Assembly: GCA_000002435.2 (NCBI GenBank) | Contig: CM018790.1 | DNA from: Giardia intestinalis | Taxonomy: Eukaryota | Length of the DNA stretch: 64,000 nt | Strand: one strand, 5' to 3' | Shown: piece after piece, positions 8,034-64,000 of the stretch | Layout of the letters: every line of letters begins with the position of its first letter | Position numbering within the stretch: position 1 is the stretch's first letter | Made by a program: the position numbers and the translations under genes | Notes under the pieces: generated by a model | The model's database searches: none | The model's input: only the letters and a program-made list of their open reading frames with translations | What the model was told of the DNA's origin: nothing

Positions 8034-10298
8034 TTACGTTACATCATGTTCCTTCTGCTCAAGAAATCCATCAAGTAGAATGAGCATAGGTTTGAACACG
8101 TACTCAGACTCTTTCTTTAGAGACGCTAGCTCATTATTCTGAAGAGGCTTGGCTGAGTACAGTGCATCTAGAAAGACAGCCATCAAAACCAAAAGAGGCA
8201 CAAGCGCCCAGATACACACCATGGTTAGAGTGTTAGTTGCTAGCCGCTGCAAGCCCAGCACTCCTATCTCATATAAAAGGACACAGATTGCCATCTCCAA
8301 AGCGCTGCCATCAAACCGTCCACCCTCAAAGATCCTGTGCCGTTCTAGATGGTGTACGTGACAGCGTGCATACAGAAAATCGGCACCAAAGAGCTGTGCG
8401 GCAGAGGCCATCATAAAGCAGAGCAGAATGGCCAGCGTGATCATAAGAATGCGAAGAAGAGTAAGAAACGCGTTTTTGCGCTTAATCCGCCGCACTGCCC
8501 GGATATTATATTCCAGCCGCCTTAGAATGCTAACGATCACTGCGTGGCAATCCCTGAGAATACGTTCGTTGTCAACAAAAATGGATTGCTCAAGGGACCA
8601 ACAGAGCTCATCGGTAGATGCTAAGAGCTCACCGATTCGGCTGGTAGAGGCACAACTTTGGTGTAAGCCGTTTCCAAGACCAACCTCTGAGCTTGCTGGG
8701 CCCTGAGAAATGATAGAGTGAGCATCATAAGTATTTGGGTTTACGACCCGGAGCATGGTGCCGCATTGGCTAATGAGCTTTCCGGCCATTGCGTTAACGA
8801 TTGCTTGTGAAGCAGCAAGGGTCTTAACTACATTTGACTGCTGCAGCGAATCAGCTAGTGTATAGTTCTGCTGCTGAGAGGGTGCCACTGACGAAGAAAG
8901 GAACTTATCCTGCTTGTCTGCAGATAAGGTCAAAGTAGAGATGCCCAAATGTGTTGGCTCCTGCGAGAGCTGTGGCAGTGCACCTGTTTCTACTTCGCTA
9001 GCTCCATACTGTTGCGGTCTGTTGCTTAGAGTAGCACTCAATTTAGTGACTTCAAGAACTATGTTTGACGTGTCGACAAGCGCTCTTGTTTGCTCATTAA
9101 GACATCTTATAGTATCGCATATATCTTGTTTTAGCCTCGTCGTTTTAGCCTGCTGGTTTGCCATTTTTGCATTGCCATAATGGGGGATACAGACTAGATT
9201 CATTTTGAAACGTCTGTATGGGGAGAGCAATATGAGTGACGAGGCGTACTCCTGAATGGCGTCAATACACGATTGTTTATCTGTAAGACGATCACACTTA
9301 GTAATTAGAATAGTTGTTTTTCCAAAAAGCTCATTTGATGAACTGATGTAGTGTAGTAGCCTTCCATTTTCCACAGAAAAGCCTTCGGTTTTTGTATCTA
9401 TACCACAGCTTGTTGTAAAAAGGATCTTATCAACTTGATGAAAGAGCGCCTTGATTGTGTTTTCAAACACTCGAGTTTCTGCCTTAGAAAAAAGCGAGCT
9501 CGGCTTGGCTTGTTTGCCTCGCTTGGACAGGTTGCTCAGAGAGCTGAGAATTCCTTTTGAAGTCGACGACTCTATCACGTAGCGGTAGAAAAATGGTACT
9601 TCGATGAAAATAAAGGGACACGTAGGCCCCATTAACTGGTCAGATGCTCCATGAAGTATGTTGTTACTCTGTGGTAAATGTGAGACAGACTTTTCTAACT
9701 TATCTATCGAATTATAGAGGGTAGCAGAATTAGACGAGACATCTTTATATCTAGAAGCCGAAGTAGATGAAGAATCACGTCCCCTTGGCAGCTGCTTAGT
9801 GCCCTCAGCAGTCGACTTAGTAGAGTAGTACATGGATTTCCCGGTGGGGGAGAGGTTCGCGTTGTGAAACCCACTTTGTAATTGGCTCTGGTCTGTTGAA
9901 AGCACCGATCCAGGAGTCTGCTTACTATATGAATTAAAAGCGCTGCAACGAATATGCGAGCCTGGGAATCCGTTTTCACGAAAGCAAGCATGGATGGATG
10001 GCAGTGTGTCTGCAAGACTGTCTGTAAAATAGGCAACATCGTTGACGCAAGGCACGTATATATTGATGCACATTCCCTCTGAGCGAAGCCTTGATCCGGT
10101 GATGTGACTTATAAGCGACGATTTTCCGCTGTAGTCCTCGCCAAGAACCAAAATCACTGGTCGTGGATTGGGAGCCTTAAAGGGGGTTGTAATGCGAAGT
10201 CTTTGACCAGCTGAGATTATGTGATGTACATATAGGTCTGAGATGGCTGCTCGTGTTTGCAAAGCCACATCTAAGCCTTGATCTGTATTAGAGATCAT
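8034..10298 (-). CDS. Dynamin-superfamily P-loop GTPase with C-terminal transmembrane segments (EHD/Sey1/mitofusin-like topology)
   Basis: G1 motif VILVLGEDYSGKSSLISHITG resembles the dynamin/EHD pattern G..S.GKSS. G4-like motif ILITKCDRL matches TKxD. A ~120-aa Ser-rich low-complexity insertion lies between them. Two long hydrophobic segments sit near the C-terminus (LTLLRILMITLAILLCFMMASAA... and ...VLGLQRLATNTLTMVCIWALVPLLVLMAVFL). Start is an ATG at 10296-10298. Confidence 0.5.
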   Translation of the reverse strand: MISNTDQGLDVALQTRAAISDLYVHHIISAGQRLRITTPFKAPNPRPVILVLGEDYSGKSSLISHITGSRLRSEGMCINIYVPCVNDVAYFTDSLADTLPSIHACFRENGFPGSHIRCSAFNSYSKQTPGSVLSTDQSQLQSGFHNANLSPTGKSMYYSTKSTAEGTKQLPRGRDSSSTSASRYKDVSSNSATLYNSIDKLEKSVSHLPQSNNILHGASDQLMGPTCPFIFIEVPFFYRYVIESSTSKGILSSLSNLSKRGKQAKPSSLFSKAETRVFENTIKALFHQVDKILFTTSCGIDTKTEGFSVENGRLLHYISSSNELFGKTTILITKCDRLTDKQSCIDAIQEYASSLILLSPYRRFKMNLVCIPHYGNAKMANQQAKTTRLKQDICDTIRCLNEQTRALVDTSNIVLEVTKLSATLSNRPQQYGASEVETGALPQLSQEPTHLGISTLTLSADKQDKFLSSSVAPSQQQNYTLADSLQQSNVVKTLAASQAIVNAMAGKLISQCGTMLRVVNPNTYDAHSIISQGPASSEVGLGNGLHQSCASTSRIGELLASTDELCWSLEQSIFVDNERILRDCHAVIVSILRRLEYNIRAVRRIKRKNAFLTLLRILMITLAILLCFMMASAAQLFGADFLYARCHVHHLERHRIFEGGRFDGSALEMAICVLLYEIGVLGLQRLATNTLTMVCIWALVPLLVLMAVFLDALYSAKPLQNNELASLKKESEYVFKPMLILLDGFLEQKEHDVT

Positions 10299-10371
10299 CT
10301 AGCTTTTATTTCTCATTCACTGGTTAATTTCGAGCTAAGTTCCACCCGTGCAGCGGACCAGCCCTTCCCGC

Positions 10372-12003
10372 GCTTTGGGCCCGGGCGGGCACGCTCTGGC
10401 CTGCAGCGCCGCGACCTTCCAGGGCGTCTCCGGGGCCCGGCGAGGCACACCCGCCGCCGCGGGCTGTGCCGGCCGGCCACAGGCGGCTGCTGTTCGCTTC
10501 CTCGCGACCGCTTGCCACCCAGGGTCCTGCCTGTCGCTGAGGGTCCTCGGATCAGGCCCTGTCTCCGGCCAGCCGATCGAGCCGCTACCGGATCACCAGG
10601 AAGAGCAGACCCACCCATTCTGCGGCCGACACACTACCACTCTCGGAAGCGCTACGCACATAGAGAGTCTACAGCGCACTCAGCCTGACAGCTGTGATGA
10701 GCCAATACTCGACAACGCAGCATAGACAAGGGCACCGTCACGCATAGACGCCTCCACATAGTTTGCTTTGGTTCATTACGGCAAGCTTGCCAGCTGCTGT
10801 CCGACTAAATTACTCAAAGAGAACGGCTGCGGTGGACAACATTCTTGCTCATTGAATTTGAGATCCGATGATTCGGATGCCATCTAGTTCTGGTGGAGAA
10901 AGAGATCTCCATGAGTCCCTGCTGCAGGAATCACCAGTTCAGCTCTTGCACTACTGTTTCAGGGACACTCCGTCCCCTTTGCTTACTCCCCTTGGGCGCT
11001 AGAACTTGGGCACTGCCTATGTCTTGTTACATGGGTCGATGGCGCCCCCAACTTCCGTCGCAATGTCTCGTAGGGACCACCGACGTTAGTAGAGGCGTAG
11101 CTCAGATGGCGAGAGGCTGGGGCCTAACGATTAACATTGCTAAGCGTAAGAGCATCCAGAAGGTATGAAAAGTTTTCTTCCTGGGAACCCAGTCTCGAAA
11201 GAGCGGCTATCTGCAGCCCTCAGGGCGATCGCGAGTACATCAAAGCATCTGAAGCTGGTAATTGATACGCCATATGACTTCTACGAATCCTTCAACGGAC
11301 TGGTCAGGGTCTCTAGCTGAGATACTTGTTTCGGACCTGAAGAAGCCCATTGCGTTTTTGGCTATACAGGACAGCGGCAGCCTGGGGGTCCACCTACTGG
11401 GCGTCTACTACAGCAGCTGGCGGTGCCTGACATCATCGAGTAGATGGGTGCCGGTTGTAGAGAGAGACGGCCTAACGACGAACCGGTCCTGATCGCTTCT
11501 GATGCTTTGGATGACGCCTCGACAGACCGAAGCATCACCCCAAGTGTGCTGTGCAGATGGACCAGCCCACACGTCACTGAGCCAGACACACTGCACAGGA
11601 TGGGCGCCGATGCGGTCTCGTGCTGGGTGACGGAGCACCTCTGCGACCCATGAACCGAGGACTGGACCTCTCCCCTGATACCAGCGCATGGGAGTACTCC
11701 ATCGACATCCACGAATGCGTACCACAACCTCAAGATAGAGGCGCATGGGGAGCGCGCCCTCCCGGTCATACTCGGAACCGATGATCGCTTCATGGGGAGA
11801 CGAAGAGGCACCCGAGGAACGGGGTAGACACCGGGGTCGTGGCGTGCGATCTTTGTCGTAGAGCACCAAGACCTTGAAGTACATGGCCAGAGTCAACTGC
11901 TCTGAGGCCAGATCGCCGTGGATGATGCAGACCCGAGACAACGGATGCTCACTAGACATCAGACGAGAATTGACCCCGACGGGCCAGAGAGAAGGGAGGA
12001 ATC
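10372..12003. repeat. Left arm of a large inverted repeat; the outer ~1.16 kb is near-identical to the right arm and the inner ~0.47 kb is ~85% identical with indels
   Basis: Reverse-complement identity to 18108-19766. Track ORFs 10893..11168(+) and 18975..19250(-) encode identical 91-aa strings. 11262..11492(+) and 18651..18881(-) encode identical 76-aa strings. 10348..10725(+) and 19418..19768(-) are identical over 116 aa. The outer boundary was read directly: identity stops after ...cccgggcccaaagc. Outer 10380-10640 is ~75% GC. Confidence 0.8.
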
Positions 12004-12523
12004 CTAGAGGCACCGCAAGAAACAGCAGGGACTCTTAAAAGAGACGGGGCATAGGAGTTCTTCCGCCGGGATTCGAGAACACCCGACTCTCGGATTTCTG
12101 ATCTCAGCTAATGTATGAGTGAGAGACTTGCCTAGAGTGGTGGTGGCTCGCATGAGAGACCACTCAGATAGCAAATGAGAGTAAATTAGGGGACCTTATT
12201 GAAAAAGAAACGGTGACCCGAGCTTCACCCATCGTGAAACAAGACCAAGGAGAAGCGCCATGGGTAGAGCAGAGAGTCTGCGAGAAGGCCTGAACCCCGA
12301 AAGGACCGATGTACGCATTCGGTCTGAGCATGCACCCATGAAACGGTAGAGAAATGTACCGGGCCCTGGATGTATCACTGGAGAGGACCCTCTTGTTATG
12401 TTATCAATGACCAACAGTCGTCTCTGAACTGGTCAGAGCTTGAGCGAGGATCACACGCAAGATCTCTGGACAATCCTCAGATAGCCCCAGCAGCATAGTG
12501 TAATAAGCTACATACAACAATGC

Positions 12524-12538
12524 GTTTACTACCTAAGT
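12524..12538 (-). promoter_or_regulatory. VSP-type extended polyadenylation signal immediately 3' of the stop
   Basis: On the mRNA strand the sequence reads TAG ATGT ACTTAGGTAGTAAAC. This matches the conserved Giardia VSP 3' motif ACTYAGRTAGTRAAY, which contains the general poly(A) signal AGTRAAY. Confidence 0.6.
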
Positions 12539-12542
12539 ACAT

Positions 12543-15245
12543 CTACGCCTTCCCGCGGCAGAGGAACCACCAACACAAGAAGCCCACAAGACCACCTACA
12601 ACAACGATCACAGCAACAGAGATGCCCGCGATCGCGCCAGTGCTGAGCCCGCTCTTGTTGACGCTTCCGCCGTTGTCAGTGCCATCCGTCTTGACGTAGC
12701 AGATGACAGAACCACTATTACCAGTTGGAGGATCGCAGCTTGCGCAGTTAGCGACACCCTGGATGCTACCGCTTGTCTCTGTACACAGCTTGCATGCTTT
12801 ACTGGCGTCCAAGTAACGGCCAGGTGGACAGGCGCTGCACTTATCGGGTTGATTGGCCACGGTGCATGTGGCACAAGTGGAATCGCATAATGGACACATG
12901 TTCGAGACAGCTGTCAAGCCATTCGCACATGTTTGGCATTTTCCATCCCCAGTGGGCGTTGTGCAGATGCTCTTCCCGGGGAGCCTGTCAGTCTTGTAGC
13001 ATCCGCCCTCCTGGATGAAGTATCCGGCGGCGCAGACCGTGCAAGCACCGTTAGCGGCAGTGGTGCAGAACAGAGTCCTGGCCGCATTGCTCGTGCAGAC
13101 GCCATTGAGCGGCACGTTGCTCCCCTTGCACTTCGAGCAGTACTTGGTACCTCCAATTGTTAGGCCGCACGTCTCGCACTCCGGGCCTTCCACGCATTGC
13201 TCCACGCACGTGCCGCCCTCATTAAGCTTGCTTTCGTCGGCGTACCTCAGCATCTTCCCGGCGGGACAGGCCGTGCACTTGGAAGCGCCGGCCCCGCTGC
13301 ACTCCGCACAGGAGGGGTCGCAGGGCGCGCACGTTTGTCCGGATAGATACGTTCCGACAGGGCAGGCATCTAAGCATGCCTTCTTCGTCGGGGTCAGATG
13401 CTTGCCTGGTTCACACGCCTCGCAAGTCTGCTTGTCCGAGGAGCACGTCTGGCAGTTCTCGATCGGGCAGTCGGCCGGCGCTGGGTTGCACGCCCTGTTA
13501 TCCCCGCTGGCCACGAATCCCGGCTTGCACGCCTCGCACGTCGCCTTGTCCGAGGAGCACGTCTGGCAGTTCTCGATCGGGCAGTCGGCCGGCGCTGGGT
13601 TGCACGCCCTGTTATCCCCGCTGGCCACGAATCCCGGCTTGCACGCCTCGCACGTCGCCTTGTCCGAGGAGCACGTCTGGCAGTTCTCGATCGGGCAGTC
13701 GGCCGGCGCTGGGTTGCACGCCCTGTTATCCCCGCTGGCCACGAATCCCGGCTTGCACGCCTCGCACGTCGCCTTGTCCGAGGAGCACGTCTGGCAGTTC
13801 TCGATCGGGCAGTCGGCCGGCGCTGGGTTGCACGCCCTGTTATCCCCGCTGGCCACGAATCCCGGCTTGCACGCCTCGCACGTCGCCTTGTCCGAGGAGC
13901 ACGTCTGGCAGTTCTCGATCGGGCAGTCGGCCGGCGCTGGGTTGCACGCCCTGTTATCCCCGCTGGCCACGAATCCCGGCTTGCACGCCTCGCACGTCGC
14001 CTTGTCCGAGGAGCACGTCTGGCAGTTCTCGATCGGGCAGTCGGCCGGCGCTGGGTTGCACGCCCTGTTATCCCCGCTGGCCACGAATCCCGGCTTGCAC
14101 GCCTCGCACGTCGCCTTGTCCGAGGAGCACGTCTGGCAGTTCTCGATCGGGCAGTCGGCCGGCGCTGGGTTGCACGCCCTGTTATCCCCGCTGGCCACGA
14201 ATCCCGGCTTGCACGCCTCGCACGTCGCCTTGTCCGAGGAGCACGTCTGGCAGTTCTCGATCGGGCAGTCGGCCGGCGCTGGGTTGCACGCCCTGTTATC
14301 CCCGCTGGCCACGAATCCCGGCTTGCACGCCTCGCACGTCGCCTTGTCCGAGGAGCACGTCTGGCAGTTCTCGATCGGGCAGTCGGCCGGCGCTGGGTTG
14401 CACGCCCTGTTATCCCCGCTGGCCACGAATCCCGGCTTGCACGCCTCGCACGTCGCCTTGTCCGAGGAGCACGTCTGGCAGTTCTCGATCGGGCAGTCGG
14501 CCGGCGCTGGGTTGCACGCCCTGTTATCCCCGCTGGCCACGAATCCCGGCTTGCACGCCTCGCACGTCGCCTTGTCCGAGGAGCACGTCTGGCAGTTCTC
14601 GATCGGGCAGTCGGCCGGCGCTGGGTTGCACGCCCTGTTATCCCCGCTGGCCACGAATCCCGGCTTGCACGCCTCGCACGTCGCCTTGTCCGAGGAGCAC
14701 GTCTGGCAGTTCTCGATCGGGCAGTCGGCCGGCGCTGGGTTGCACGCCCTGTTATCCCCGCTGGCCACGAATCCCGGCTTGCACGCCTCGCACGTCGCCT
14801 TGTCCGAGGAGCACGTCTGGCAGTTCTCGATCGGGCAGTCGGCCGGCGCTGGGTTGCACGCCCTGTTATCCCCGCTGGCCACGAATCCCGGCTTGCACGC
14901 CTCGCACGTCGCCTTGTCCGAGGAGCACGTCTGGCAGTTCTCGATCGGGCAGTCGGCCGGCGCTGGGTTGCACGCCCTGTTATCCCCGCTGGCCACGAAT
15001 CCCGGCTTGCACGCCTCGCACGTCGCCTTGTCCGAGGAGCACGTCTGGCAGTTCTCGATCGGGCAGTCGGCCGGCGCTGGGTTGCACGCCCTGTTATCCC
15101 CGCTGGCCACGAATCCCGGCTTGCACGCCTCGCACGTCGCCTTGTCCGAGGAGCACGTCTGGCAGTTCTCGATCGGGCAGTCGGTCGATACTGATGTACG
15201 GTGAGCCTGTGTCACTGTAAAAACTAGGAGAAATCCTACCAACAT
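12543..15245 (-). CDS. Variant-specific surface protein (VSP) with 15 tandem 38-aa Cys-rich repeats
   Basis: Signal peptide MLVGFLLVFTVTQA. CXXC-rich ectodomain. One C-terminal TM followed by the invariant Giardia VSP tail ...GFLCWWFLCRGKA. ATG at 15243-15245, TAG stop at 12543-12545. The 38-aa unit DCPIENCQTCSSDKATCEACKPGFVASGDNRACNPAPA is repeated about 15 times. Confidence 0.9.
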   Translation of the reverse strand: MLVGFLLVFTVTQAHRTSVSTDCPIENCQTCSSDKATCEACKPGFVASGDNRACNPAPADCPIENCQTCSSDKATCEACKPGFVASGDNRACNPAPADCPIENCQTCSSDKATCEACKPGFVASGDNRACNPAPADCPIENCQTCSSDKATCEACKPGFVASGDNRACNPAPADCPIENCQTCSSDKATCEACKPGFVASGDNRACNPAPADCPIENCQTCSSDKATCEACKPGFVASGDNRACNPAPADCPIENCQTCSSDKATCEACKPGFVASGDNRACNPAPADCPIENCQTCSSDKATCEACKPGFVASGDNRACNPAPADCPIENCQTCSSDKATCEACKPGFVASGDNRACNPAPADCPIENCQTCSSDKATCEACKPGFVASGDNRACNPAPADCPIENCQTCSSDKATCEACKPGFVASGDNRACNPAPADCPIENCQTCSSDKATCEACKPGFVASGDNRACNPAPADCPIENCQTCSSDKATCEACKPGFVASGDNRACNPAPADCPIENCQTCSSDKATCEACKPGFVASGDNRACNPAPADCPIENCQTCSSDKATCEACKPGFVASGDNRACNPAPADCPIENCQTCSSDKQTCEACEPGKHLTPTKKACLDACPVGTYLSGQTCAPCDPSCAECSGAGASKCTACPAGKMLRYADESKLNEGGTCVEQCVEGPECETCGLTIGGTKYCSKCKGSNVPLNGVCTSNAARTLFCTTAANGACTVCAAGYFIQEGGCYKTDRLPGKSICTTPTGDGKCQTCANGLTAVSNMCPLCDSTCATCTVANQPDKCSACPPGRYLDASKACKLCTETSGSIQGVANCASCDPPTGNSGSVICYVKTDGTDNGGSVNKSGLSTGAIAGISVAVIVVVGGLVGFLCWWFLCRGKA
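13417..15184. repeat. Perfect tandem array, 114-bp unit x ~15.5, inside the VSP coding sequence
   Basis: Unit gcctcgcacgtcgccttgtccgaggagcacgtctggcagttctcgatcgggcagtcggccggcgctgggttgcacgccctgttatccccgctggccacgaatcccggcttgcac repeats head-to-tail with no visible mismatches. The first copy (13417-13530) is degenerate. This array produces the spurious long ORFs in three + frames. Confidence 0.9.
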
Positions 15246-15878
15246 TAGCCGGGTTAGTATGCCACTGCTCTTCTGTCAGGCCGGTGTATTGGCCGCGAGC
15301 AGTGAGAGACAGCCGCTCTTGCTCTCTCGATCAGTTGGACTGAAGAAGGATAAGATAGGAGCACGCCCACCGGAGGCCGGCTGATAGTGCAGTTCCCCCT
15401 GACTTCGATAGGAACAGGACCAGTGATGACTAGACTCAGACCGCACCTCTCTTGTGGAATGATTGTTCGGGGCGCACTCCTGTACATTGCTGTCACTGTA
15501 TCACTGGGCCCGCCTGCAAGTGCGCTCAGAGATCCCACGGGTAAGCTGCGCCCACTTCTCGACCGTCCGGAGACGATGGCTAGTTGTGGATAACATACTA
15601 AGAGCTCCTCTCCATCGATGCATCCAGAGCTCAGTGTGGTCCCAGTCGGCGTGCCCTGTCGAGGGTGCTCCATGTCGGCCTCCAGGATCCGGCCTGCTCA
15701 GGGCCATACAAGCCGTTAGTATGCCTCTCCTTGGCCTGCCATCGACAGCTCGCACTGGCCGCCCTGCTCGGGTAGTAGCCAAGGTCACTCCAAAGGGTGG
15801 CTCCGGATTGCAGTTAAGATTAGCGATGGCTGTTGGCTCCACTCCCCGTTCCAACTGCCGCGGAGGGCGCCCTGGGAG

Positions 15879-18016
15879 ATGCTAGTAACAGTGCAGTTAG
15901 CGGCTTTGCAGAGCCGATGGGCGCTGGTGGCATCCCCGTGCTCAGCGGGGGCCTTCAGTGTTATCTACTCTCCCAAGGGATGCCCCTACCTCGCCGTGAG
16001 AGAGATCCGGCTCGACGGTCTGGATCAGCACGGTGTGGATGCTAAAGCGTGGGCTGGTCGCCCTTCTTAACATCTTTCACCTGGGAGTCCTCAAGCACTA
16101 TCAAGTGATTGAAGACGAGGGCCTCATCTACGTCGTCACGGACCGGCACGACAAGACCCTTGAGCGCCTCCTCACCGAGCACAAACGAAGGAAGATCCCC
16201 GTCCCTATCGCTGTGATCCTCTCTGTCATGAAGCAGGTCGCTGCCGCCCTCGCCTACCTCCACGGCCTCAGCGGAGTGGGTGCCGACGGTCGCCCCTACA
16301 AGGGCCTCGTCCACCGCGACCTCAAGCTTGCGAACGTCCTCGTCAGCGCAGATGGTGAACACTTCATCATCGCCGACTTCGGCCTCTGTAAGGACGCCCT
16401 GAGATGCGGGAGCACCATTGCAGGCACGGCAGTATACATGGCCCCCGAGATTCTCCTCCGTAATGAGACCAGCCATGCTTCCGACGTGTGGAGCCTCGGG
16501 GTCATCATTTATGAATTAGTAACTCTGAGGAGACCGGACTTCTTGGGGGGCAAGGAGCCAGCAGAGGTCTTCGTCGACGGGTGGAGGCCGGACCTGAGCG
16601 GTGTCACTGATGGCTTCATAAAGAGTGTTCTGGAGAGGATATTCGTGCTGGAACCAGAGGAAAGACTGACGGCCAGGGAGCTGCACGAGACGCTCACTGC
16701 GGCTGACATCCCAGTTAGTGAGCTGAGGGGCAGTGCGTGATGCTGAGGTACAAGTGCGGATCCTTGGAGGCTGCGCTGAATGGCGCTAACGCCAGGATCG
16801 CGCTGCTGGAAGAGGAGGTTAAGACTAAGTCTACTAAGATTGACGCACTCGAAGAGCAAGGTAAGGAGCACCTAGCCATGATTAAGGCACTGGAGAGTAG
16901 GCTTGCACAGTTCGGTGACAGGATGAACACGACTGACCCTCAGTCCAGCCTCCTTTTGCTGCCCAGGCTGATGCGTGCCGCGCATACGAATAGCATGGAA
17001 ACCGTCTGGATGCTGCTTGAAGAAGGACTCGGCGTTGGCTAGCGTGACGAGCAGGGGCACGTCAGTCCCGTCGAGTTGCTTGTTGGGGAGGAGAGGGGCC
17101 TCCAGGACAGGAACGGCTGGACCCCCTGATGATCACCACAGAGGAGGGCTATGCAAGAGCTGCCTCCCTTCTGGTCCCATATGAGAAGGACCGGATCGGC
17201 AGCGAAGGCAAGACGGCCTTGGTGATTGCGGCAGAGGCAGGACATGGAACTGTGGTGGAGGCCATCGACCCAACCGATGAGAATGGCGTCACGGCGCTCA
17301 TGCGAGCTGTTAATAGAAACTACGTGGGGCCTGTGAAGGCAGTCATACTTAGCCAGAGAAGGAGGAAAACATACAAAGAGGTCATAGCAAGCGGATGGTA
17401 CATGCGCACAGGAACAGCTCTGATGATGGCTGCGGCACATGGATACGCAGAAATAGTAGAACTGCTAGTGGAACACGAAAAGGGGAGAAAGTAGGCGGTT
17501 GGGCCGCTCTCATATTCGCGGCACGGTGCGACCGTTCCAATGACCCCCTGGTGGACTATATTGGGCGCGTTGAGCTTTTGATGGAGTATGAGAGCAATAT
17601 CTCAGGGTGGACGGAGCTCATGTATGCAGTAGCACGAGGGCAGAAGGGAGTGTAGAGCTGCTCAAGCAGGAGACTGGGATACAGAATAACGATCATCAGA
17701 CTGTCCTCACGTGGACGGTGTGCAATGATCACCCAGAGTGTGTCAGGCCCCTGCTGAAGGACGAAGGCTGCATGCAAACGACCAAGGGGGGACCGCCCTT
17801 ATGAACGCAGCATATAGCAACACCGTGGAATGTGCAAGACTTCCTAAAGAAAACGAGAAGGAGCTGAAGACAATTTCTAGCTGCCATGGTCACTCGCCCG
17901 GTACCACTGCCCTCAATATCGCTAAGAAGAAGGATCGCAAAGAGATAGTAGACATCCTCCCAAACGAGATCTACTCTGCTTCATCAAGGTCGGCTTGCCA
18001 GCTCCTGTCCGAGTAA
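15879..18016 (+). pseudogene. NEK-family protein kinase - coiled-coil - ankyrin-repeat gene, disrupted by at least six frame changes
   Basis: Kinase subdomains I-II (SAGAFSVIY..., LAVREI) lie in frame 0 at 15879-16070. Subdomains III-XI lie in frame 1 at 16033-16740 (HRDLKLANVLV, ADFGLC, YMAPE, DVWSLGVIIYEL); that segment 'starts' with GTG. A coiled coil (LEEEVKTKSTKIDALEEQGKEHLAMIKALESRLAQ) lies in frame 0 at 16737-17042. Ankyrin repeats (GKTALVIAAEAGHGTVVEAI, GTALMMAAAHGYAEIVELLVEH, GGTALMNAAYSNTVECA, GTTALNIAKKKDRKEIVDIL) are spread over frames 2/1/0/2 between 17129 and 18016. Confidence 0.6.
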
Positions 18017-18107
18017 ATCCGTCCAGGATCCGGAGTCCGGATGCCGCCCACTCTGGAGAAGAGCCTTGTGCATCCCGCCTAGGAGCCATTGGGTGCTCCA
18101 CTATATG

Positions 18108-19766
18108 CTTCGGGGCGTCCCTTCTCTCTGGCCCGTCGGGGTCAGCCATCGCCTGATATCTAGTGAGCACCCGTTGTCCCGGGCCTTGCGTCGGTCACGG
18201 CGATCCTGTCTCAAGAGCAATTGACTCTGGCCATGTACTCTGGAGTAGCTTTGTGGTGCTGATGCTCCATGACGAAGATCGCGCCCCACGACCCCGGGTG
18301 TCGACTCCCGTTCCTCGGGGTGCCTCTTCATCTTCTCGTGGAGGGCACCATCTGTTCCATTATCAAGGATGCGCTCCCCGTGCGCCTCTGTCTTGGAGTC
18401 ATAGTACGCATTCGTGGATGCCAGCGGAGCACTCCCATGCGGTGGTGTCGGGGGAGAAGTATGGCCCTCCTATTCATGGATCGAAGGGCGCTCTTGCAGG
18501 CGGTCCGTCACCCAGCACGAGACCGCATCGGCGCCCATCCTGTGCAGTGCGTCTGGCTCAGTGACGTGTGGGCTGGTCCATCTGCACCGCAAAGCACGCT
18601 TGGGGGAATGATTCGGTCTGTCGAGGCGTCATCCAAAGCATCAGAAGCGATCAGGACCGGTTCGTCGTTAGGCCGTCTCTCTCTACAACCGGCACCCATC
18701 TACTCGATGATGTCAGGCACCGCCAGCTGCTGTAGTAGACGCCCAGTAGGTGGACCCCCAGGCTGCCGCTGTCCTGTATAGCCAAAAACGCAATGGGCTT
18801 CTTCAGGTCCGAAACAAGTATCTCAGCTAGAGACCCTGACCAGTCCGTTGAAGGATTCGTAGAAGTCATATGGCGTATCAATTACCAGCTTCAGATGCTT
18901 TGATGTACTCGCGATCGCCCTGAGGGCTGCAGATAGCCGCTCTTTCGAGACTGGGTTCCCAGGAAGAAAACTTTTCATACCTTCTGGATGCTCTTACGCT
19001 TAGCAATGTTAATCGTTAGGCCCCAGCCTCTCGCCATCTGAGCTACGCCTCTACTAACGTCGGTGGTCCCTACGAGACATTGCGACGGAAGTTGGGGGCG
19101 CCATCGACCCATGTAACAAGACATAGGCAGTGCCCAAGTTCTAGCGCCCAAGGGGAGTAAGCAAAGGGGACGGAGTGTCCCTGAAACAGTAGTGCAAGAG
19201 CTGAACTGGTGATTCCTGCAGCAGGGACTCATGGAGATCTCTTTCTCCACCAGAACTAGATGGCATCCGAATCATCGGATCTCAAATTCAATGAGCAAGA
19301 ATGTTGTCCACCGCAGCCGTTCTCTTTGAGTAATTTAGTCGGACAGCAGCTGGCAAGCTTGCCGTAATGAACCAAAGCAAACTATGTGGAGGCGTCTATG
19401 CGTGACGGTGCCCTTGTCTATGCTGCGTTGTCGAGTATTGGCTCATCACAGCTGTCAGGCTGAGTGCGCTGTAGACTCTCTATGTGCGTAGCGCTTCCGA
19501 GAGTGGTAGTGTGTCGGCCGCAGAATGGGTGGGTCTGCTCTTCCTGGTGATCCGGTAGCGGCTCGATCGGCTGGCCGGAGACAGGGCCTGATCCGAGGAC
19601 CCTCAGCGACAGGCAGGACCCTGGGTGGCAAGCGGTCGCGAGGAAGCGAACAGCAGCCGCCTGTGGCCGGCCGGCACAGCCCGCGGCGGCGGGTGTGCCT
19701 CGCCGGGCCCCGGAGACGCCCTGGAAGGTCGCGGCGCTGCAGGCCAGAGCGTGCCCGCCCGGGCCC
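18108..19766. repeat. Right arm of the inverted repeat (reverse complement of 10372-12003)
   Basis: See left arm. The inner boundary was found by comparing the reverse complement of 11800-12003 with 18108-18330: ~85% identity, lost beyond 18108 and 12003. Confidence 0.8.
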
Positions 19767-19863
19767 AAAGCACAGATGATGGTTCATTTCATCTATTTAC
19801 TAGAAGGCAACTAGCCGAATAGTCTGATAAGTAGCCTCTTCTTATGCATGTTAACTGAATAAG

Positions 19864-22281
19864 TCATATAACTGGGATATAACAGCATCCAATAATAACC
19901 CAGACAGCCGCAATGGTTTCTGCATATCCAAAGACAGAAACGTGCAGTCCTATACGCAGTTTATCCCCATGTGCCTCAACTATACTACGACTTTTATCGT
20001 TTGAAAGAAGCGTCTCTACAATAGGTGGAGCATAGAATCTTAGGCTCCCCATGACCTGCAACGGATAAACTATCAGTGTTTCACGAGAAGAAACATAATT
20101 TTTGAGCGCTACCTTCAAAGTCTCATTGCCTAACTGGCCGATAGTTCCACCCATGAGGCGTGTCTGTTCCCAGGATGCTACTGTGGGCGCCAATATCATA
20201 GAAAGCTGTTCAGATCTGGGTGTTGTCAGTCCAAGTGTTTGCCTCCGTGCTTCAATAAGCCTCCATATATCTGCTGTTAAATAACTGGACAGTGTAGCGG
20301 CCAAGGAGGGGCCAAACGGTTTTAGTATATTCTGGTTTTGAAGCAAACGTGGAAGACGGGTAGAAGTCACTAGATAATCATCGTCATCCATGTTATAGTG
20401 ATAGACATAGCTATTATAGACGCGTTCTATCATGGACTGATTGAAAGCTTTCCAAAATAAGGGCCTGGATATATCTAGAGATATGCCATGTATAAGTTGT
20501 TTTTCAGGTATGTATTGTAGTCTATTTGTACTTTGAATATTAACAAAAAGCATGGTTTCATTGAAAATGCAGTCTATTGTCTCATACGGAAAATGAATAA
20601 CAGTTCCAGCAGAATCAGAGTGTTTATCTATCTTGTATTGACCTTCTGTTGGCAACGAGTGCAGCTCTATCATACCTCCATGATCCGATAACAAGCAGTC
20701 CCAGAATTGAATCACCTGTGCACAGAGTGTGATAACGAACGCAGAGCGGACACTCCTATTTCCAGACACATCCGATTTTAGCCCTGGAAGAGCGCATGTG
20801 CCCAGAGCAACGAATGCCGGTATCTGATATCCTCTCAGCATCGAGCACAAGAGAACTGCCTTGTCAAACGGTGTACCAGCACCGACAGATAGCGTGGTGA
20901 TAACTCGAGACCAGACTAGCTCGTTGTTTCCTGATAGTCCAGCGGTGGCTGGAGTTGATTGGCGTCCAGGTGCTGGCATAAGTTGGATAAAGCGCATGCA
21001 ATAGCTAGCCGTTGGAAGGTACGAGCTTGTAAAGGGAGTGATAAGAGTGGAAATAGGGACCACCATTCCATCATCCCGAAGAGCATGGAGCTGAACAAAA
21101 CGCTTGTCTAGTCCAACCGAACTGGGCTGCGAGCCAAGATAGTCTCTCATAAATACGCTTGCGGTCCTATCATATTCTGCAAGTGCTCTGGAGACTGATC
21201 TTTTTGAGGTTGTTAATATGTCTCTAAGGGAGCGGAAGGAGGCTTCTTCAGAGACATCTGCACTGGTCAGAAGGGGCGTGAAAGTGATTGAAACGTTAAG
21301 AGTACCTAGCCGTATTTTTTCGGTTGGAGTGTTGGGTCCTGGTGCTTGAGAATAAGGGTACATGGGAACACTAACTGCCCCAGCCAGCAGAGAATTGGCC
21401 TTGGTCAGCTCAGTGAAGAACTCCACAAAGCCAACTCGTCCATGTGCATGAAGATACTGCATTCCTGAATAGCTGTGGAACACCGCAAGAAAGGTAAGGT
21501 CAGTTACTTTGAGATCTGAAATTGCTCTGAAAGAAGTCAGCGGAGTGGAGGATATACAGAATCGAATCTTTGAAAACGCTAACGGTGCAAGCCCTATAGT
21601 AGCATCACTTCTTTCACACTTGATTGGCGGACAGACATGCCGCAAATTTCCAAGAGCTATTGTGAGGGTAATCACGCCTTCCTCACTGACGCCAGATTGC
21701 CCACCAAGATTGTTACTACACGGAGGAGCAAGCTCACCCGAGGTGATCTGAACCTCTAGATGTTGTTCTACAAGAGTTCTAGACTCTCTAGCAGCGTGAA
21801 GCGCTGTAAGCATTGAGACGGAATCTCTAACCACTTCACTCATAGCACGTGTTGCCTGACGCTCTGTACTATTTAAATCATCGTGTGTATTCATAGACAA
21901 TACATTAGGCTGTGTGCCCCCCTGGACAGACTCCAAATGGCGGCGAGCTTGCTCTCTTCTTTCCATACGTTCCTCTGCAGACATTGATATGCAATCTGTT
22001 GGCTCTGCAGTGGCCCCAGAGCACTTCGACCTGTGAATAGCATATGCCTCCTTCACTGTTTGCTTATCAAAGGCCTGGTCAAAGTATCTTTCTGCCAGTG
22101 AGTGTACTAAGTTGGACTTTTCCAGGTATACTAAGAGACGCTTTTCTACGTCCCGTGGGTTCATATCTCTATCTATCTTTAGCTCTGGGTCCTTGGACTC
22201 ACTGAGTTCCTGGAAAATGCTCTGCAGCTGCTCTTTTGTAAGCTCTCTTAGAACGAACGCCTTAATGCTCTGGGAGTCCAT
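19864..22281 (-). CDS. Hypothetical protein with a possible transglutaminase-like (TGL) domain
   Basis: 805-aa ORF with ATG at 22279-22281. The segment GTPFDKAVLLCSMLRGYQIPAFVALG resembles the Cys-containing core of TGL domains (G.C..A.L...LLRA.GIPAR.V.G). There is no other recognisable motif. Confidence 0.45.
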   Translation of the reverse strand: MDSQSIKAFVLRELTKEQLQSIFQELSESKDPELKIDRDMNPRDVEKRLLVYLEKSNLVHSLAERYFDQAFDKQTVKEAYAIHRSKCSGATAEPTDCISMSAEERMERREQARRHLESVQGGTQPNVLSMNTHDDLNSTERQATRAMSEVVRDSVSMLTALHAARESRTLVEQHLEVQITSGELAPPCSNNLGGQSGVSEEGVITLTIALGNLRHVCPPIKCERSDATIGLAPLAFSKIRFCISSTPLTSFRAISDLKVTDLTFLAVFHSYSGMQYLHAHGRVGFVEFFTELTKANSLLAGAVSVPMYPYSQAPGPNTPTEKIRLGTLNVSITFTPLLTSADVSEEASFRSLRDILTTSKRSVSRALAEYDRTASVFMRDYLGSQPSSVGLDKRFVQLHALRDDGMVVPISTLITPFTSSYLPTASYCMRFIQLMPAPGRQSTPATAGLSGNNELVWSRVITTLSVGAGTPFDKAVLLCSMLRGYQIPAFVALGTCALPGLKSDVSGNRSVRSAFVITLCAQVIQFWDCLLSDHGGMIELHSLPTEGQYKIDKHSDSAGTVIHFPYETIDCIFNETMLFVNIQSTNRLQYIPEKQLIHGISLDISRPLFWKAFNQSMIERVYNSYVYHYNMDDDDYLVTSTRLPRLLQNQNILKPFGPSLAATLSSYLTADIWRLIEARRQTLGLTTPRSEQLSMILAPTVASWEQTRLMGGTIGQLGNETLKVALKNYVSSRETLIVYPLQVMGSLRFYAPPIVETLLSNDKSRSIVEAHGDKLRIGLHVSVFGYAETIAAVWVIIGCCYIPVI

Positions 22282-61278: not shown

Positions 61279-64000
61279 TCAATCCTCTATCTCCATGACC
61301 CCATCATACCACTGCTTCGGTGGAAGGTTCTTGGAGTATGGGTTGCCAAATGCTATTTTCAAACCCTCAAGCTTTATTCTAACAGTCTTACTAATGGCCT
61401 TTCCGACCTGCCCAACCGATTGGTAGACGTCTATAACGTTGCAGAATTCGCTGGAGTAGAATAGCAGACTGTCTGTCAGCTCAATAAAGGCAAGCATTAA
61501 GTCATCGCGCAACGACAGGGTAGAGAGCCACTCAGCCTTCTCCGCAAACCACTTTTGGATGTCTAGTACGATATAGTTAAAAACGTTCTTGAAATACGTG
61601 CCTGCAAGCTGTTCCGACCACCCATATACACGGGCAAGGCTGGTATAGAGCGAAAATGTACTTAGCGCCAGCTTCAACACCTCAGTACGCAGAAGAGCGC
61701 TTCTCTCTGGCCTTTTTATATAATCTTTTCCGACAGCAGGAGCTCCCGCAGCTTGCTCCAAACTGGCCACTTCACTTGTGTAATTTTCAGGGAGGACTCC
61801 GTAGATGTTCCCTCCAACAATTACATAATCCTTGAACACCTTGCAGGTAAATGCCAGGAGATTGCAACCTGCAAACACCTCATTAGTGAGAAGGTGCAAG
61901 TGGTCCTTGAGGGCTAGGCGCTTCTGCTGAATGAAGAAGGCATCGAGGGGCTTTGCAGGGGGGTCCGAGAGGGCCTTGATGTGAGCAGTCACGATGCTGT
62001 CGAGGGTCATGGTTGCATTAACGAGAATGTTAAAGACACGCAAAAAAGCATAAATATCGTCGCCTTCCACCTTGATTTCAAAGGAGTCCGGATTGATGAC
62101 CTTTGGAAAGACCTTCTCCAGCGTATATGTGCACCCGCAGTTAGCAACAAAGATCTGCCACATGCGCTCGTCACTCACTGCATTGCTTATTCCGTCAATT
62201 ATCAGGTCTGTATGTATGTTCCCATGTATATAGGACTGCAGGAAGTACTTTCGAAGTTCTGGATTCAGCGACAGCTTCTTGGTACGGAGGGCATTGACAA
62301 CTATCGTGAGAGCAACCTCGTGATATTGTGAGCTATTAAATAAGCAGAGAAGCATTGACTGGGAGTTGATCAATCGGTGGTAGCTTCCAACAATGGCCTC
62401 CGTAAAGAGAGCAATCTCGTCAGACCTCACCATTTCGCCCATAAATAGGCCAACTTCCTGTATGTCCCTAGTGATCTTTACAAAAATGGGCTCTGGTGCC
62501 GCAGACTGCATCTGGGTGGGGTCTATGATTTTGCCATCTTCCTGAGGTTTGACAGATTCGGAAACCTTGGTGCTAGGGAGCCGCAACATGAAAGACACAG
62601 ATTCCTTGATGTAAGCGTCTATCGTGGTGCATGTGTTGAAGAATCCATATGCTCTTCCACGCTCTAAACTTACAGATAGAATAGTTGCAGCGGCGTGTCG
62701 AATGTATCTGAAGAACTCAATTGCATAGTTAAATAACTGTAAGTTGTCCTTACCGTGCACTTTTGCCAACTCTGTGCTCCCCTCTGGTATCTCATTAAAG
62801 AGAGAAAAGTTATGTGTGTCTTTTAGAAGATTCATAATTGCAAATGTAAGCCCCTTTACCTTACGAGTGGTGTCAGAAATGTAGAATAAGTGATCGCGAA
62901 CGAGGTGATGCGCTGGATGGTTAAGCACGCAAGCGGTGATGCCTAGAAGTAACTTGGACATTTGTATGTATTCGGGGTTAAGCTGAAAGAACGAAGGGCT
63001 TCCCTTCTTGTCAGCAGTTGTGATTTGCTGTTGGAGCATGGCCTGGTCGATTCCCTCTATCCGTATCAGTTTCGTCTCACTCTCTTGTGCTGTGGCTGCA
63101 CCCTGTGCGGCATCAGCACCTTTGGCATCAGAAGACGGTCTCTCCGAGACTTGCTTTTGTGATTGGTGAAGGTTGGTCAGCATAGCTGTTTCATAGAGCT
63201 CTCGGGGCGGTACTGTATTAAAAGCGGTGTTGGCAAGAGCAAACAAGCAAGACTCCAGATTGAGCACCATGCGGCGGCTCAAGTAGAACGGCACGTGAGG
63301 CTTTGTATATGACTGGTAAAACTCATCGAGCACCTGGAGCGAGGGAATAGACTTGAAGCTGTTCCTGATGTTTATGCTATTTCCCTGTAGCATGTTCGCC
63401 TTCAAGACCTGGGCACAGATGTCGAGATAGACGTGAATGGCCCCTGACAGAAGTGTAAACGCGTTTATGTATGCTGCACGGAACAAGATCTCTCTTTTTT
63501 CCTTGGTTCTTATCGTCTTAAGCCGGGTCCTAGAGGCCTCTAAGACAGACTCGAGCTTGCTCTGGGGATAGTCAGTTATGGAAAGAGTAGACATGATATG
63601 GATGTCCAGATTCTTCACCTTTGTGAGCCGCGCTTGTAATTCTCGTATGTTTTGTCCGGGGAGGCGATTAAGGTAGTATTTGTCGATTGCGTTGGAGCGG
63701 TCTCCCTCTGCCTCCATGCCCATGGATATAATAGAGGTGTAGTCGCTCAGCAGCGAAGGTGCATCATTGACTATCCGACTGCAATCTACTATAGTATTTT
63801 GGACAACTCTACGCAAGTCAATCTTAGGTTCAGAAGATGACTCCGTTAATATGCGATAAAAATTGTGATTGGTTGCAGTGGACGGGTTCTTGAGTACATT
63901 AAACGTATTGAAATCGAAAAAGAATAGCAGAGCTAAGGCTAGGCATAGATACGGCTTCAAAATAGTTGCCTCAGAGTTAATGTAGAAGAACAGGAACGTC
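61279..64000 (-). CDS. Hypothetical protein, 5'-partial (continues past the window end)
   Basis: The ORF-track start at 63960 is TTG. The minus-strand frame stays open through 64000 with no stop, so the gene begins beyond the window. No domain recognised. Confidence 0.5.
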   Translation of the reverse strand, partial: TFLFFYINSEATILKPYLCLALALLFFFDFNTFNVLKNPSTATNHNFYRILTESSSEPKIDLRRVVQNTIVDCSRIVNDAPSLLSDYTSIISMGMEAEGDRSNAIDKYYLNRLPGQNIRELQARLTKVKNLDIHIMSTLSITDYPQSKLESVLEASRTRLKTIRTKEKREILFRAAYINAFTLLSGAIHVYLDICAQVLKANMLQGNSINIRNSFKSIPSLQVLDEFYQSYTKPHVPFYLSRRMVLNLESCLFALANTAFNTVPPRELYETAMLTNLHQSQKQVSERPSSDAKGADAAQGAATAQESETKLIRIEGIDQAMLQQQITTADKKGSPSFFQLNPEYIQMSKLLLGITACVLNHPAHHLVRDHLFYISDTTRKVKGLTFAIMNLLKDTHNFSLFNEIPEGSTELAKVHGKDNLQLFNYAIEFFRYIRHAAATILSVSLERGRAYGFFNTCTTIDAYIKESVSFMLRLPSTKVSESVKPQEDGKIIDPTQMQSAAPEPIFVKITRDIQEVGLFMGEMVRSDEIALFTEAIVGSYHRLINSQSMLLCLFNSSQYHEVALTIVVNALRTKKLSLNPELRKYFLQSYIHGNIHTDLIIDGISNAVSDERMWQIFVANCGCTYTLEKVFPKVINPDSFEIKVEGDDIYAFLRVFNILVNATMTLDSIVTAHIKALSDPPAKPLDAFFIQQKRLALKDHLHLLTNEVFAGCNLLAFTCKVFKDYVIVGGNIYGVLPENYTSEVASLEQAAGAPAVGKDYIKRPERSALLRTEVLKLALSTFSLYTSLARVYGWSEQLAGTYFKNVFNYIVLDIQKWFAEKAEWLSTLSLRDDLMLAFIELTDSLLFYSSEFCNVIDVYQSVGQVGKAISKTVRIKLEGLKIAFGNPYSKNLPPKQWYDGVMEIED

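What the first reader, a model, noticed from the sequence alone, without database searches (positions are those of the whole stretch)
10372..19766. A ~1.65-kb inverted-repeat pair brackets a 6.1-kb cassette holding a VSP gene and a dead NEK-ankyrin gene
Segments 10372-12003 and 18108-19766 are reverse complements of each other. Several 76-116-aa ORF translations are letter-for-letter identical on opposite strands. Between the arms lie exactly two genes: the variant surface protein (minus strand) and a multiply frameshifted NEK kinase-ankyrin pseudogene (plus strand). A long inverted repeat flanking an antigenic-variation gene is the geometry of an invertible or recombinogenic segment, or a composite-transposon-like unit. 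A read-through transcript could also fold into a long hairpin dsRNA. This matters because Giardia VSP expression is controlled post-transcriptionally through RNAi-type mechanisms. The arms themselves have no convincing coding capacity.
Basis: seen in the sequence. Interest (0 to 1): 0.75.

Follow-up and report, generated by a model that had tools for sequence, protein, structure and literature searches.

The report
Inverted dead-retrotransposon repeat around a VSP
In the Giardia WB genome, a real 1.6-kb inverted repeat made of dead retrotransposon remnants plus copied host flank brackets one surface-antigen gene and a dead kinase gene; gene conversion keeps its arms identical, and it fits the already described unstable surface-antigen islands better than a genetic switch.

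Summary
Arms 10372-11997 and 19771-18118 are reverse complements: the outer 1183 nt are identical and the inner ~450 nt are degraded. They enclose one intact VSP (probably GL50803_33279/vsp100) and a NEK-ankyrin pseudogene with at least 5 frameshifts. The window is Giardia intestinalis WB C6. Independent assemblies support both outer junctions and the gene order, so it is not an assembly artefact.

The arms are not featureless. Each holds about 225 nt copied from the native 3' flank of the CEP76-like gene, about 300-470 nt unassigned, and about 0.9 kb of a decayed non-LTR reverse-transcriptase ORF whose 3' end points inward.

Isolate DH (A2) has the same structure in the same orientation. Over 435 comparable sites, 14 are fixed WB-versus-DH differences and none differ between arms within an isolate. 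That indicates arm-to-arm gene conversion. P15 (E) also carries paired inverted RT remnants here, but in the opposite orientation and with different genes.

There is no target-site duplication, transposase or recombinase. The VSP's initiator and poly(A) signal lie inside the spacer, and its mRNA should not contain arm sequence. The structure therefore looks like an inverted segmental duplication in a known type of GC-rich VSP/NEK/RT island. Flipping and hairpin RNA remain untested.

The parts
10372..11997 (.). Left arm of the inverted repeat. 10372-11554 is identical to the right arm; 11555-11997 is the degraded inner part.
18118..19771 (.). Right arm of the inverted repeat. 18589-19771 is identical to the left arm; 18118-18588 is the degraded inner part.
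19546..19771 (.). Outermost ~225 nt of the right arm: native 3' flank of the CEP76-like gene, orthologous to the sequence directly downstream of CEP76 in P15. Its mirror at 10372-10597 is the derived copy.
   Evidence: L019 1-12769 matches window 32292-19546
10340..10371 (.). About 32 nt just outside the left boundary that still resemble P15's CEP76 3' flank. The original duplication reached slightly beyond today's identity boundary. The matching right-side bases (19772-19796) have shifted from GC to AT.
11070..11903 (+). Decayed non-LTR reverse-transcriptase ORF (C-terminal part of the RT domain to near the ORF end), several frames, 3' end pointing inward.
   Evidence: tblastn with Giardia RT proteins P0046/P0050/P0051 (E 8e-9 to 1e-8) and RT-family HMM (iE 2e-7):
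18184..19073 (-). Mirror copy of the decayed reverse-transcriptase ORF, 3' end pointing inward.
   Evidence: tblastn P0050 E 1.5e-16, P0051 E 3.9e-13; HMM iE 1.7e-7:
11998..12542 (.). Left spacer between arm and VSP. 12100-12173 is homologous to an 80-nt piece that also abuts the RT 3' end in P15.
12543..15245 (-). Intact VSP gene, 900 aa, CRGKA tail, TAATGTT initiator, AGTAAA poly(A) signal at 12525-12530. Probably vsp100 / GL50803_33279.
13414..15184 (-). 15.5 copies of a 114-bp (38-aa) tandem repeat inside the VSP.
15879..18014 (+). NEK kinase / coiled-coil / ankyrin pseudogene, at least 5 frame changes. Old 'hypothetical protein' models GL50803_104062 and GL50803_104063 lie within it.
8034..10298 (-). 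Left flanking core gene GL50803_0017385 (754 aa). Its ATG is 74 nt from the arm.
19864..22281 (-). Right flanking core gene, CEP76-like 'Centrosomal protein' (805 aa). Its AGTAAA signal at ~19801 lies 30 nt before the arm.

Best explanation
The structure is an inverted segmental duplication inside one of Giardia's GC-rich, non-syntenic VSP/NEK/retroelement islands. The island sits between two conserved core genes of isolate WB. Each arm is a composite: about 225 nt copied from the native 3' flank of the CEP76-like gene, about 300-470 nt of unassigned GC-rich DNA, and about 0.9 kb of a dead, 5'-incomplete non-LTR reverse-transcriptase gene whose 3' end points into the cassette. Shown: the composite make-up of the arms. 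Shown: the same structure, boundaries and orientation in sub-assemblage A2. Shown: concerted evolution of the arms in WB and DH, and arms that are each other's closest relative in P15 too. Inferred: identity is maintained by repeated arm-to-arm gene conversion, with a tract covering the outer 1183 nt in WB and nearly the whole arm in DH. Inferred: the left arm is the derived copy, made by a fold-back or template-switch type of inverted duplication. Inferred: the repeat is a structural by-product that makes the locus recombination-prone, consistent with the mosaic, fast-diverging interior. It is not taken to be a device controlling the enclosed VSP, which carries its own initiator and poly(A) signal inside the spacer and is expressed like other VSPs.
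For: Repeat anatomy. GC island at 55-68% against ~46% in the flanks. RT homology in both arms on opposite strands: tblastn E down to 1.5e-16, family HMM iE ~2e-7. No other Pfam domain in any frame and no Rfam family. The outermost 225 nt are orthologous to P15's CEP76 3' flank, and 32 nt outside the left boundary still match it. DH has left flank - L arm - VSP - NEK - R inner arm in the WB orientation, and the right flank plus 435 nt of the R arm. Concerted evolution: DH_L versus DH_R is 437/437 in the outer part and 369/371 in the inner part. WB versus DH arms are 94-97% in the outer part and ~79-82% in the inner part. Of 435 four-way sites, 14 are fixed between isolates and 0 vary within an isolate. 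Flanks are 98.6-100% identical between WB and DH, against 52-97% inside the cassette. P15 arms are 90-95% identical to each other but 64-75% identical to assemblage A arms. VSP signals lie inside the spacer, and the VSP protein is detected in WB proteomes (PMC7775365). Literature for the class: 14 identical inverted VSP pairs with abrupt divergence points (PMC2996952); psi-RT or NEK between divergent duplicated VSP pairs (PMC7000408); GC-rich non-syntenic islands with VSP, RT, NEK, protein 21.1 and GTP-binding genes (PMC3091692).
Against: Gene conversion is inferred from sequence patterns, not observed. Independent re-duplication with identical boundaries in WB and DH is very unlikely but not formally excluded. 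Only ~810 nt of DH's right arm is assembled. The two P15 contigs are not joined, so calling its copies an inverted pair assumes WB-like orientation of the flanking genes. The P15 copies point the other way, so the history needs at least one more rearrangement that I cannot reconstruct. The three ~80%-identical versions of the inner arm (WB-L, WB-R, DH) are not explained by simple arm-to-arm conversion and suggest input from copies elsewhere, which I could not search. Absence of function is an argument from anatomy only; no read, RNA or small-RNA data were available.
Confidence: 0.75

Rival explanations
1. Flip-flop (invertible) segment: homologous recombination between the 1183-nt identical tracts inverts the 6.1-kb VSP/NEK spacer at an appreciable rate, producing two isomers, possibly with an effect on VSP expression.
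For: The perfect 1183-nt inverted tracts and the evidence for arm-to-arm recombination make occasional crossover and inversion mechanistically plausible. Nanopore data predicted 162 intra-isolate inversions in WB (PMC7048089).
Against: The orientation is the same in the PacBio WB assembly, the 2007 Sanger annotation order and DH. The initiator and poly(A) signal both lie inside the spacer, so inversion should not switch the gene. No recombinase was found. This locus did not appear in the part of the Pollo et al. SV table that is held, but the table is truncated, so this is inconclusive. Adam et al. state that VSP switching is epigenetic (PMC2996952, abstract).
Confidence: 0.12
2. Hairpin-RNA / endo-siRNA locus: a read-through transcript covering both arms folds into a >1-kb dsRNA that Giardia Dicer processes. 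The products would silence the related retroelement family or act on the local locus, including the VSP.
For: The arms pair perfectly over 1183 nt and derive from a retroelement. Retroposon-derived sense/antisense small RNAs and endo-siRNAs are reported in Giardia (Ullu 2005 and Liao 2014, seen only as references; their content is from my own knowledge). Concerted evolution preserves the pairing.
Against: It needs a transcript of at least 8.2 kb across the cassette; nothing here shows one. The arms contain no VSP sequence, and the VSP mRNA should end at its AGTAAA ~0.5 kb before the arm, so VSP-directed RNAi is not expected. The identical tract is partly host-flank and unassigned DNA rather than retroelement. 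The inner arms are allowed to decay in WB. There is no Rfam hit.
Confidence: 0.08
3. Mobile composite element: the two arms are terminal repeats or flanking elements that moved the VSP-NEK cassette into this site.
For: The cassette is a GC-rich insertion-like island between conserved genes, and P15 has different genes at the same site.
Against: There is no target-site duplication. There is no transposase or integrase. The arm termini are copied host flank, orthologous to P15's CEP76 3' flank. The RT remnants are dead, 5'-incomplete non-LTR fragments that cannot act as composite-transposon ends. The exact arm ORF was found only at this locus.
Confidence: 0.02
4. Assembly artefact: one arm is a mis-join or collapsed repeat.
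For: Identical inverted repeats are known to break or confuse Giardia assemblies (PMC2996952).
Against: Both outer junctions occur in independent short-read assemblies. DH contigs carry both arms with lineage-specific substitutions. The old Sanger-based annotation has the same gene order. The inner parts of the arms differ by ~21% and each joins unique DNA.
Confidence: 0.02

Closest known systems
Inverted pairs of identical VSP genes in Giardia WB (Adam et al. 2010, PMC2996952; Xu et al. 2020, PMC7000408)
   Same: Kilobase-scale, essentially perfect inverted duplications in VSP islands with abrupt divergence points. They have a unique spacer a few kb long, RT remnants or a NEK gene are associated with several of them, and they break short-read assemblies.
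   Different: In those pairs the arms are the VSP genes themselves and the 2-4 kb spacer is non-coding or holds a psi-RT or NEK. Here the arms are psi-RT plus copied host flank, and a single-copy VSP (plus a NEK pseudogene) sits in a 6.1-kb spacer, the reverse arrangement.
GC-rich non-syntenic islands at synteny breaks between Giardia assemblages (Jerlstrom-Hultqvist et al. 2010, PMC3091692)
   Same: An island of elevated G+C between conserved genes. It carries VSP, NEK kinase and RT remnants in WB, and GTP-binding, ankyrin (protein 21.1-like) and RT genes in P15. This matches the gene categories that paper lists.
   Different: The paper does not describe an inverted-repeat architecture or arm homogenisation at such islands.
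Palindromes / large inverted repeats kept identical by arm-to-arm gene conversion (human Y-chromosome palindromes, plastid inverted repeat; from my own knowledge)
   Same: The arms are more alike within a lineage than orthologous arms are between lineages. They have a unique spacer and sharp outer boundaries conserved between lineages.
   Different: The scale is much smaller. The arm content is junk (dead retroelement plus intergenic DNA) with no sign that selection maintains it. Isomerisation of the spacer is not shown.
Giardia non-LTR retrotransposons GilM/GilT/GilD (Arkhipova & Morrison 2001; paper not held, so from my own knowledge and from PMC7000408 and PMC10999387)
   Same: The arm core is homologous to Giardia RT/endonuclease-type proteins and is riddled with frameshifts, as reported for the 'dead' GilD family at internal chromosomal sites.
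   Different: Family assignment was not tested, because no Gil reference sequences were available. The closest proteins are P15/GS-type RTs (up to 38-71% over short pieces). DH's annotated RT/endonuclease proteins P0055 and P0057 are only 35-36% identical to the P15 RT that abuts the arm.
Bacterial invertons / site-specific DNA inversion switches
   Same: Inverted repeats bracket a surface-antigen gene.
   Different: Invertons have short repeats, a dedicated recombinase, and a promoter or coding junction split by the inversion. None of these is present here.

Membership tests
Giardia inverted identical VSP pairs | Two identical VSP ORFs in head-to-head or tail-to-tail orientation | tested here: not met
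   Only one VSP lies between or in the arms. No VSP domain appears in any arm frame.
Giardia inverted identical VSP pairs | Near-identity extending to an abrupt divergence point | tested here: met
   Identity is 100% up to 10372/19771 and then breaks abruptly, at the same boundary in DH.
Giardia inverted identical VSP pairs | Spacer of 2-4 kb between the repeated units | tested here: not met
   The spacer is 6.1 kb between the arms (7.0 kb between the identical tracts) and contains genes.
Inverted repeats homogenised by gene conversion (palindrome-type) | Arms more similar within a lineage than orthologous arms between lineages | tested here: met
   14 fixed WB/DH differences and 0 within-isolate differences over 435 sites. 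Inner core: DH 99%, P15 95%, WB 86%, against 81-82% and 69-75% between lineages.
Inverted repeats homogenised by gene conversion (palindrome-type) | Both spacer orientations present in a population (flip-flop) | not testable with these tools
   This needs long reads spanning 9.4 kb. The held copy of the Pollo et al. SV table is truncated.
Non-LTR retrotransposon remnant (Gil-type) | Reverse-transcriptase homology | tested here: met
   tblastn E 1.5e-16 to 8e-9 and HMM iE ~2e-7, mirrored in both arms. The Pfam RVT_1 model itself does not hit the WB arms, but it hits the P15 ORF abutting the homologous arm at 3.8e-25.
Non-LTR retrotransposon remnant (Gil-type) | Assignment to GilD, GilM or GilT by comparison with reference elements | not tested
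   Reference sequences and the defining paper were not available.
Site-specific invertible switch | Recombinase gene in or next to the element | tested here: not met
   No recombinase, integrase or transposase domain in the cassette ORFs or arm frames that were scanned.
Site-specific invertible switch | Promoter and gene separated by the inversion boundary | tested here: not met
   The TAATGTT initiator at the ATG (15245) and AGTAAA at 12530 both lie inside the spacer.
Composite or TIR DNA transposon | Target-site duplication flanking the terminal repeats | tested here: not met
   The left flank ends ...CCCTTCCCGC and the right flank begins ACAGATGA...; there is no duplication.
Hairpin-RNA / endo-siRNA locus | Single transcript covering both arms, and Dicer-sized small RNAs from the arms | not testable with these tools
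   No RNA data were available. The only evidence is pairing potential.

The most novel reading that the evidence does not exclude
The paired, conversion-maintained inverted retroelement remnants act as a hairpin-RNA source, in effect an endo-siRNA 'trap' against the Gil-type retroelement family, or as a recombination hotspot whose occasional flipping or conversion drives diversification of the enclosed VSP. On this reading the persistence of inverted RT pairs at the same locus in assemblages A and E would be selected rather than accidental.
Probability: 0.07. Interest if true: 0.6.

Novelty: new member of a known kind. Interest (0 to 1): 0.3.

Why it matters
The repeat does not support a new mechanism of antigenic variation. 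It does give a clean, datable example of ongoing intrachromosomal gene conversion in Giardia, an organism whose recombination and sexuality are debated. It shows dead retroelement copies and copied host flank acting as the substrate for inverted duplications in VSP islands, which complements the known inverted VSP pairs. It also marks a locus where long-read data could directly measure inversion and conversion rates. Practically, it explains why short-read assemblies of assemblage A break at exactly these positions.

Tried and rejected
1. Pfam scan of all six frames of 10300-12542 at E<=1: only a chance-level hit. The RT origin emerged only from Giardia-specific RT proteins found through the P15 locus.
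2. Rfam over 9500-20500: only chance-level snoRNA hits.
3. Exact look-up of the 900-aa VSP and of a reconstructed 748-aa (11-repeat) form: neither is on record. Identity with GL50803_33279 therefore rests on repeat unit, repeat count arithmetic, initiator type and solitary status in Adam et al.'s table.
4. Search for other genomic copies through the exact 51-aa arm ORF: only this locus appeared. This detects only near-identical copies, and no whole-genome BLAST was possible.
5. Pollo et al. 2020 SV supplement searched for the VSP and flank gene IDs: no hit, but 5,045 rows of the table were cut when stored, so this is inconclusive.
6. Arkhipova & Morrison 2001 and Liao et al. 2014 could not be read.
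7. Assemblage-B-like contigs stop 155 nt after the CEP76 stop, and their tails do not align to WB, so they are uninformative.
8. P15's 765-aa GTPase-like and 910-aa ankyrin neighbours have no orthologue in the window.
9. I tried to derive the WB arrangement from the P15 one by a single inversion or deletion. No single event fits, so the history is left unresolved.
Full report
SOURCE AND OBSERVATION. The two genes flanking the feature are exact matches to Giardia intestinalis WB clone C6 proteins: GL50803_0017385 (KAE8302294 / XP_001706166) and a CEP76-like 'Centrosomal protein' (KAE8302296 / XP_001706158). The inverted repeat is real. Arms 10372-11997 and 19771-18118 align at 93.3% over 1660 columns. 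The outer 1183 nt are 100% identical, and the inner ~450 nt are degraded to 62-98% per 50-column block with indels. It is the only large repeat in the 64-kb window apart from the VSP's internal array. It bounds a GC-rich island of 55-68% G+C against ~46% outside.

CASSETTE CONTENT. Inside are a 900-aa VSP at 12543-15245(-) and a NEK-type pseudogene at 15879-18014(+). The VSP hits Pfam VSP at 3e-164, has a CRGKA tail, and carries 15.5 copies of a 114-bp repeat. The pseudogene has kinase, coiled-coil and ankyrin parts and needs at least five frame changes relative to the DH version.

NOT AN ARTEFACT. Independent short-read (Logan) contigs from other sequencing runs end exactly 30 nt inside the right arm (19742) and the left arm (10401). 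That is the behaviour expected of a k=31 assembler meeting a repeat. Others run from the left flank ~1.1 kb into the arm at 100% identity. In the 2007 RefSeq annotation, the protein numbering runs from CEP76 (…158) through two small ORFs that lie in the NEK pseudogene (…161, …162) to the left flank (…166). This is the same order as in this PacBio-based sequence. The DH (sub-assemblage A2) assembly carries both arms.

WHAT THE ARMS ARE. No Pfam domain appears in any of six frames, and no Rfam family matches. The clue came from the orthologous locus in P15 (assemblage E), where an RVT_1 ORF (3.8e-25) abuts a sequence homologous to the arm. Giardia RT-family proteins retrieved with that ORF match the WB left arm on the plus strand (about 11070 to 11903). 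They match the right arm on the minus strand (19073 to 18184). E-values reach 1.5e-16, the matches are spread over several frames, and the last residues of the proteins fall near the inner ends of the arms. A family HMM confirms this (iE ~2e-7).

The outermost ~225 nt of the arms are not retroelement. They are orthologous to the DNA directly downstream of CEP76 in P15 (L019 1-12769 matches window 32292-19546). In addition, ~32 nt just outside the left boundary (10340-10371) still resemble that P15 flank. The corresponding bases on the right have drifted from GC to AT in both WB and DH.

Each arm is therefore copied host flank, plus ~300-470 nt unassigned, plus a dead RT gene pointing inward. 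The left arm is the derived copy. This rules out two independent retroelement insertions as the origin of the WB repeat. It also rules out terminal repeats of a mobile element: there is no target-site duplication, no transposase or recombinase, and the exact arm ORF was found only at this locus.

CONCERTED EVOLUTION. DH shows left flank - left arm - VSP - NEK - inner right arm in the WB orientation, and on another contig the right flank plus 435 nt of the right arm. Both contigs stop in the stretch where the arms are identical. DH's two arms are 437/437 identical in the outer part and 369/371 in the inner part. They differ from WB's arms by 3-6% (outer) and ~20% (inner).

In a four-way alignment of 435 sites, 14 are fixed differences between the WB pair and the DH pair, and none differ within an isolate. 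With P15 as outgroup, derived states occur in both lineages. The outer boundary is identical in WB and DH, so the duplication predates their split and has been homogenised since. This is the signature of arm-to-arm gene conversion.

The conversion tract covers the outer 1183 nt in WB and nearly the whole arm in DH. In the arm core, the two arms are each other's closest relative in all three lineages: P15 95%, DH 99%, WB 86%, against 81-82% for A1 versus A2 and 69-75% for A versus E. The three ~80%-identical versions of the inner arm (WB-L, WB-R, DH) exceed A1/A2 neutral divergence. So does the mosaic 52-97% identity of the cassette interior, against 99-100% in the flanks. Both point to additional exchange with paralogous copies elsewhere. 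This is an inference I could not test.

P15 COMPARISON. P15 also has RT remnants next to both flanking genes, 90% identical over 1287 nt and mutually inverted if the flanks are oriented as in WB; the two contigs are not joined. Their 3' ends point outward, towards the flanking genes. The intervening genes are a GTPase-like protein, an ankyrin protein and an RT ORF, not a VSP and a NEK. An 80-nt piece that abuts the RT 3' end in P15 also abuts it at the WB left arm (12100-12173). No single inversion or deletion converts one arrangement into the other, so the deeper history is unresolved.

FUNCTIONAL READINGS. The VSP has its TAATGTT initiator at the ATG. It has the canonical Giardia AGTAAA signal 12 nt after the stop, ~0.5 kb before the arm. 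The CEP76-like gene has AGTAAA 30 nt before the arm. Inversion would therefore carry the VSP with its signals, and VSP mRNA should contain no arm sequence. The arms contain no VSP sequence that could seed VSP-directed RNAi.

The VSP is probably vsp100 / GL50803_33279. That entry is listed with a 114-nt repeat x 11, 748 aa, a TAATGTT initiator, and no pairing or array membership. 748 aa plus 4 x 38 aa gives the 900 aa seen here. The protein is detected in WB trophozoite proteomes. The orientation is the same in every assembly available. Flip-flop at low frequency and a hairpin transcript from the arms remain possible but could not be tested here. The one published SV table that might have answered the first question is truncated in the held copy.

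COMPARISON WITH WHAT IS KNOWN. Giardia WB is known to contain 14-19 inverted pairs of identical VSP genes with 2-4 kb spacers and abrupt divergence points. Several have a psi-RT or a NEK gene in the spacer (PMC2996952; PMC7000408). It is also known to have GC-rich non-syntenic islands carrying VSP, RT, NEK, protein 21.1 and GTP-binding genes at synteny breaks (PMC3091692).

The present structure belongs to that landscape but is the reverse arrangement: psi-RT plus host flank in the arms, and a single VSP in the spacer. I found no description of it, nor of arm homogenisation at such loci, in the papers searched. It works like a small palindrome maintained by gene conversion. It fails the defining tests for an inverted VSP pair, an inverton and a composite transposon.

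VERDICT. Its main value is as clear evidence for ongoing intrachromosomal gene conversion in Giardia, and as a convenient locus for measuring inversion and conversion with long reads.

Noticed in passing
window 61279-63960 (-): An intact 893-aa ORF with no Pfam hit (E<=10) and no PDB sequence match. Eight different Giardia RT proteins give consistent but sub-threshold tblastn hits (E 0.15-0.56) to 63250-63459 within it. It could be a very divergent RT-like protein (possibly telomerase), or chance.
   Followed up: partly
window 13414-15184: The VSP has 15 identical 38-aa repeats here. Adam et al. 2010 list 11 copies for the likely same gene (vsp100), and the DH orthologue is called at only 392 aa. 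This is either repeat collapse in older assemblies or real copy-number variation.
   Followed up: partly
L019 14079-15200 (-) and L007 1-5189 (P15): At the orthologous locus P15 keeps an uninterrupted 373-aa RT-domain ORF next to CEP76. It also has a 765-aa GTPase-like gene (AIG1/MMR_HSR1 hits) and a 910-aa ankyrin gene in place of WB's VSP and NEK.
   Followed up: partly
window 10372 and 19771 (Logan contigs L001-L006, L016-L018, L024): Right-flank contigs stop 28-30 nt inside the arm in every Logan sample read. Left-flank contigs from several samples run up to ~1.1 kb into the arm and then stop at 11465-11508, 46-89 nt before the arms diverge. The asymmetry and the early stop are unexplained; they may reflect assembler heuristics or allelic variation.
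   Followed up: no
window 11400-12700 and 15217-18510 versus L009 (DH): WB-DH identity drops from 99-100% in the flanks to 52-89% in blocks of the inner arms, the left spacer, the VSP 3' end and the NEK pseudogene, interleaved with 93-97% blocks. This mosaic suggests exchange with paralogous copies elsewhere in the genome.
   Followed up: partly
window 19772-19796 versus 10340-10371 and L019 12490-12545: The ~25 nt between the CEP76 poly(A) signal and the right arm have changed mostly from GC to AT in WB and DH, relative to P15 and to the copy preserved outside the left arm. This may reflect constraint on 3'-end formation of the CEP76-like mRNA.
   Followed up: no
window 16042-16476 (-) and 17129-17494 (+): Two 'hypothetical proteins' of the 2007 annotation (GL50803_104062 and GL50803_104063) are ORFs lying within the frameshifted NEK pseudogene, one of them on the antisense strand. 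They are very likely not genes.
   Followed up: yes
L020-L023 (assemblage-B-like Logan contigs): Contigs carrying the 80%-identical CEP76 orthologue all end 155 nt after its stop codon, and the last ~160 nt have no match in WB. This suggests a repeat boundary at the same place in that lineage too.
   Followed up: no
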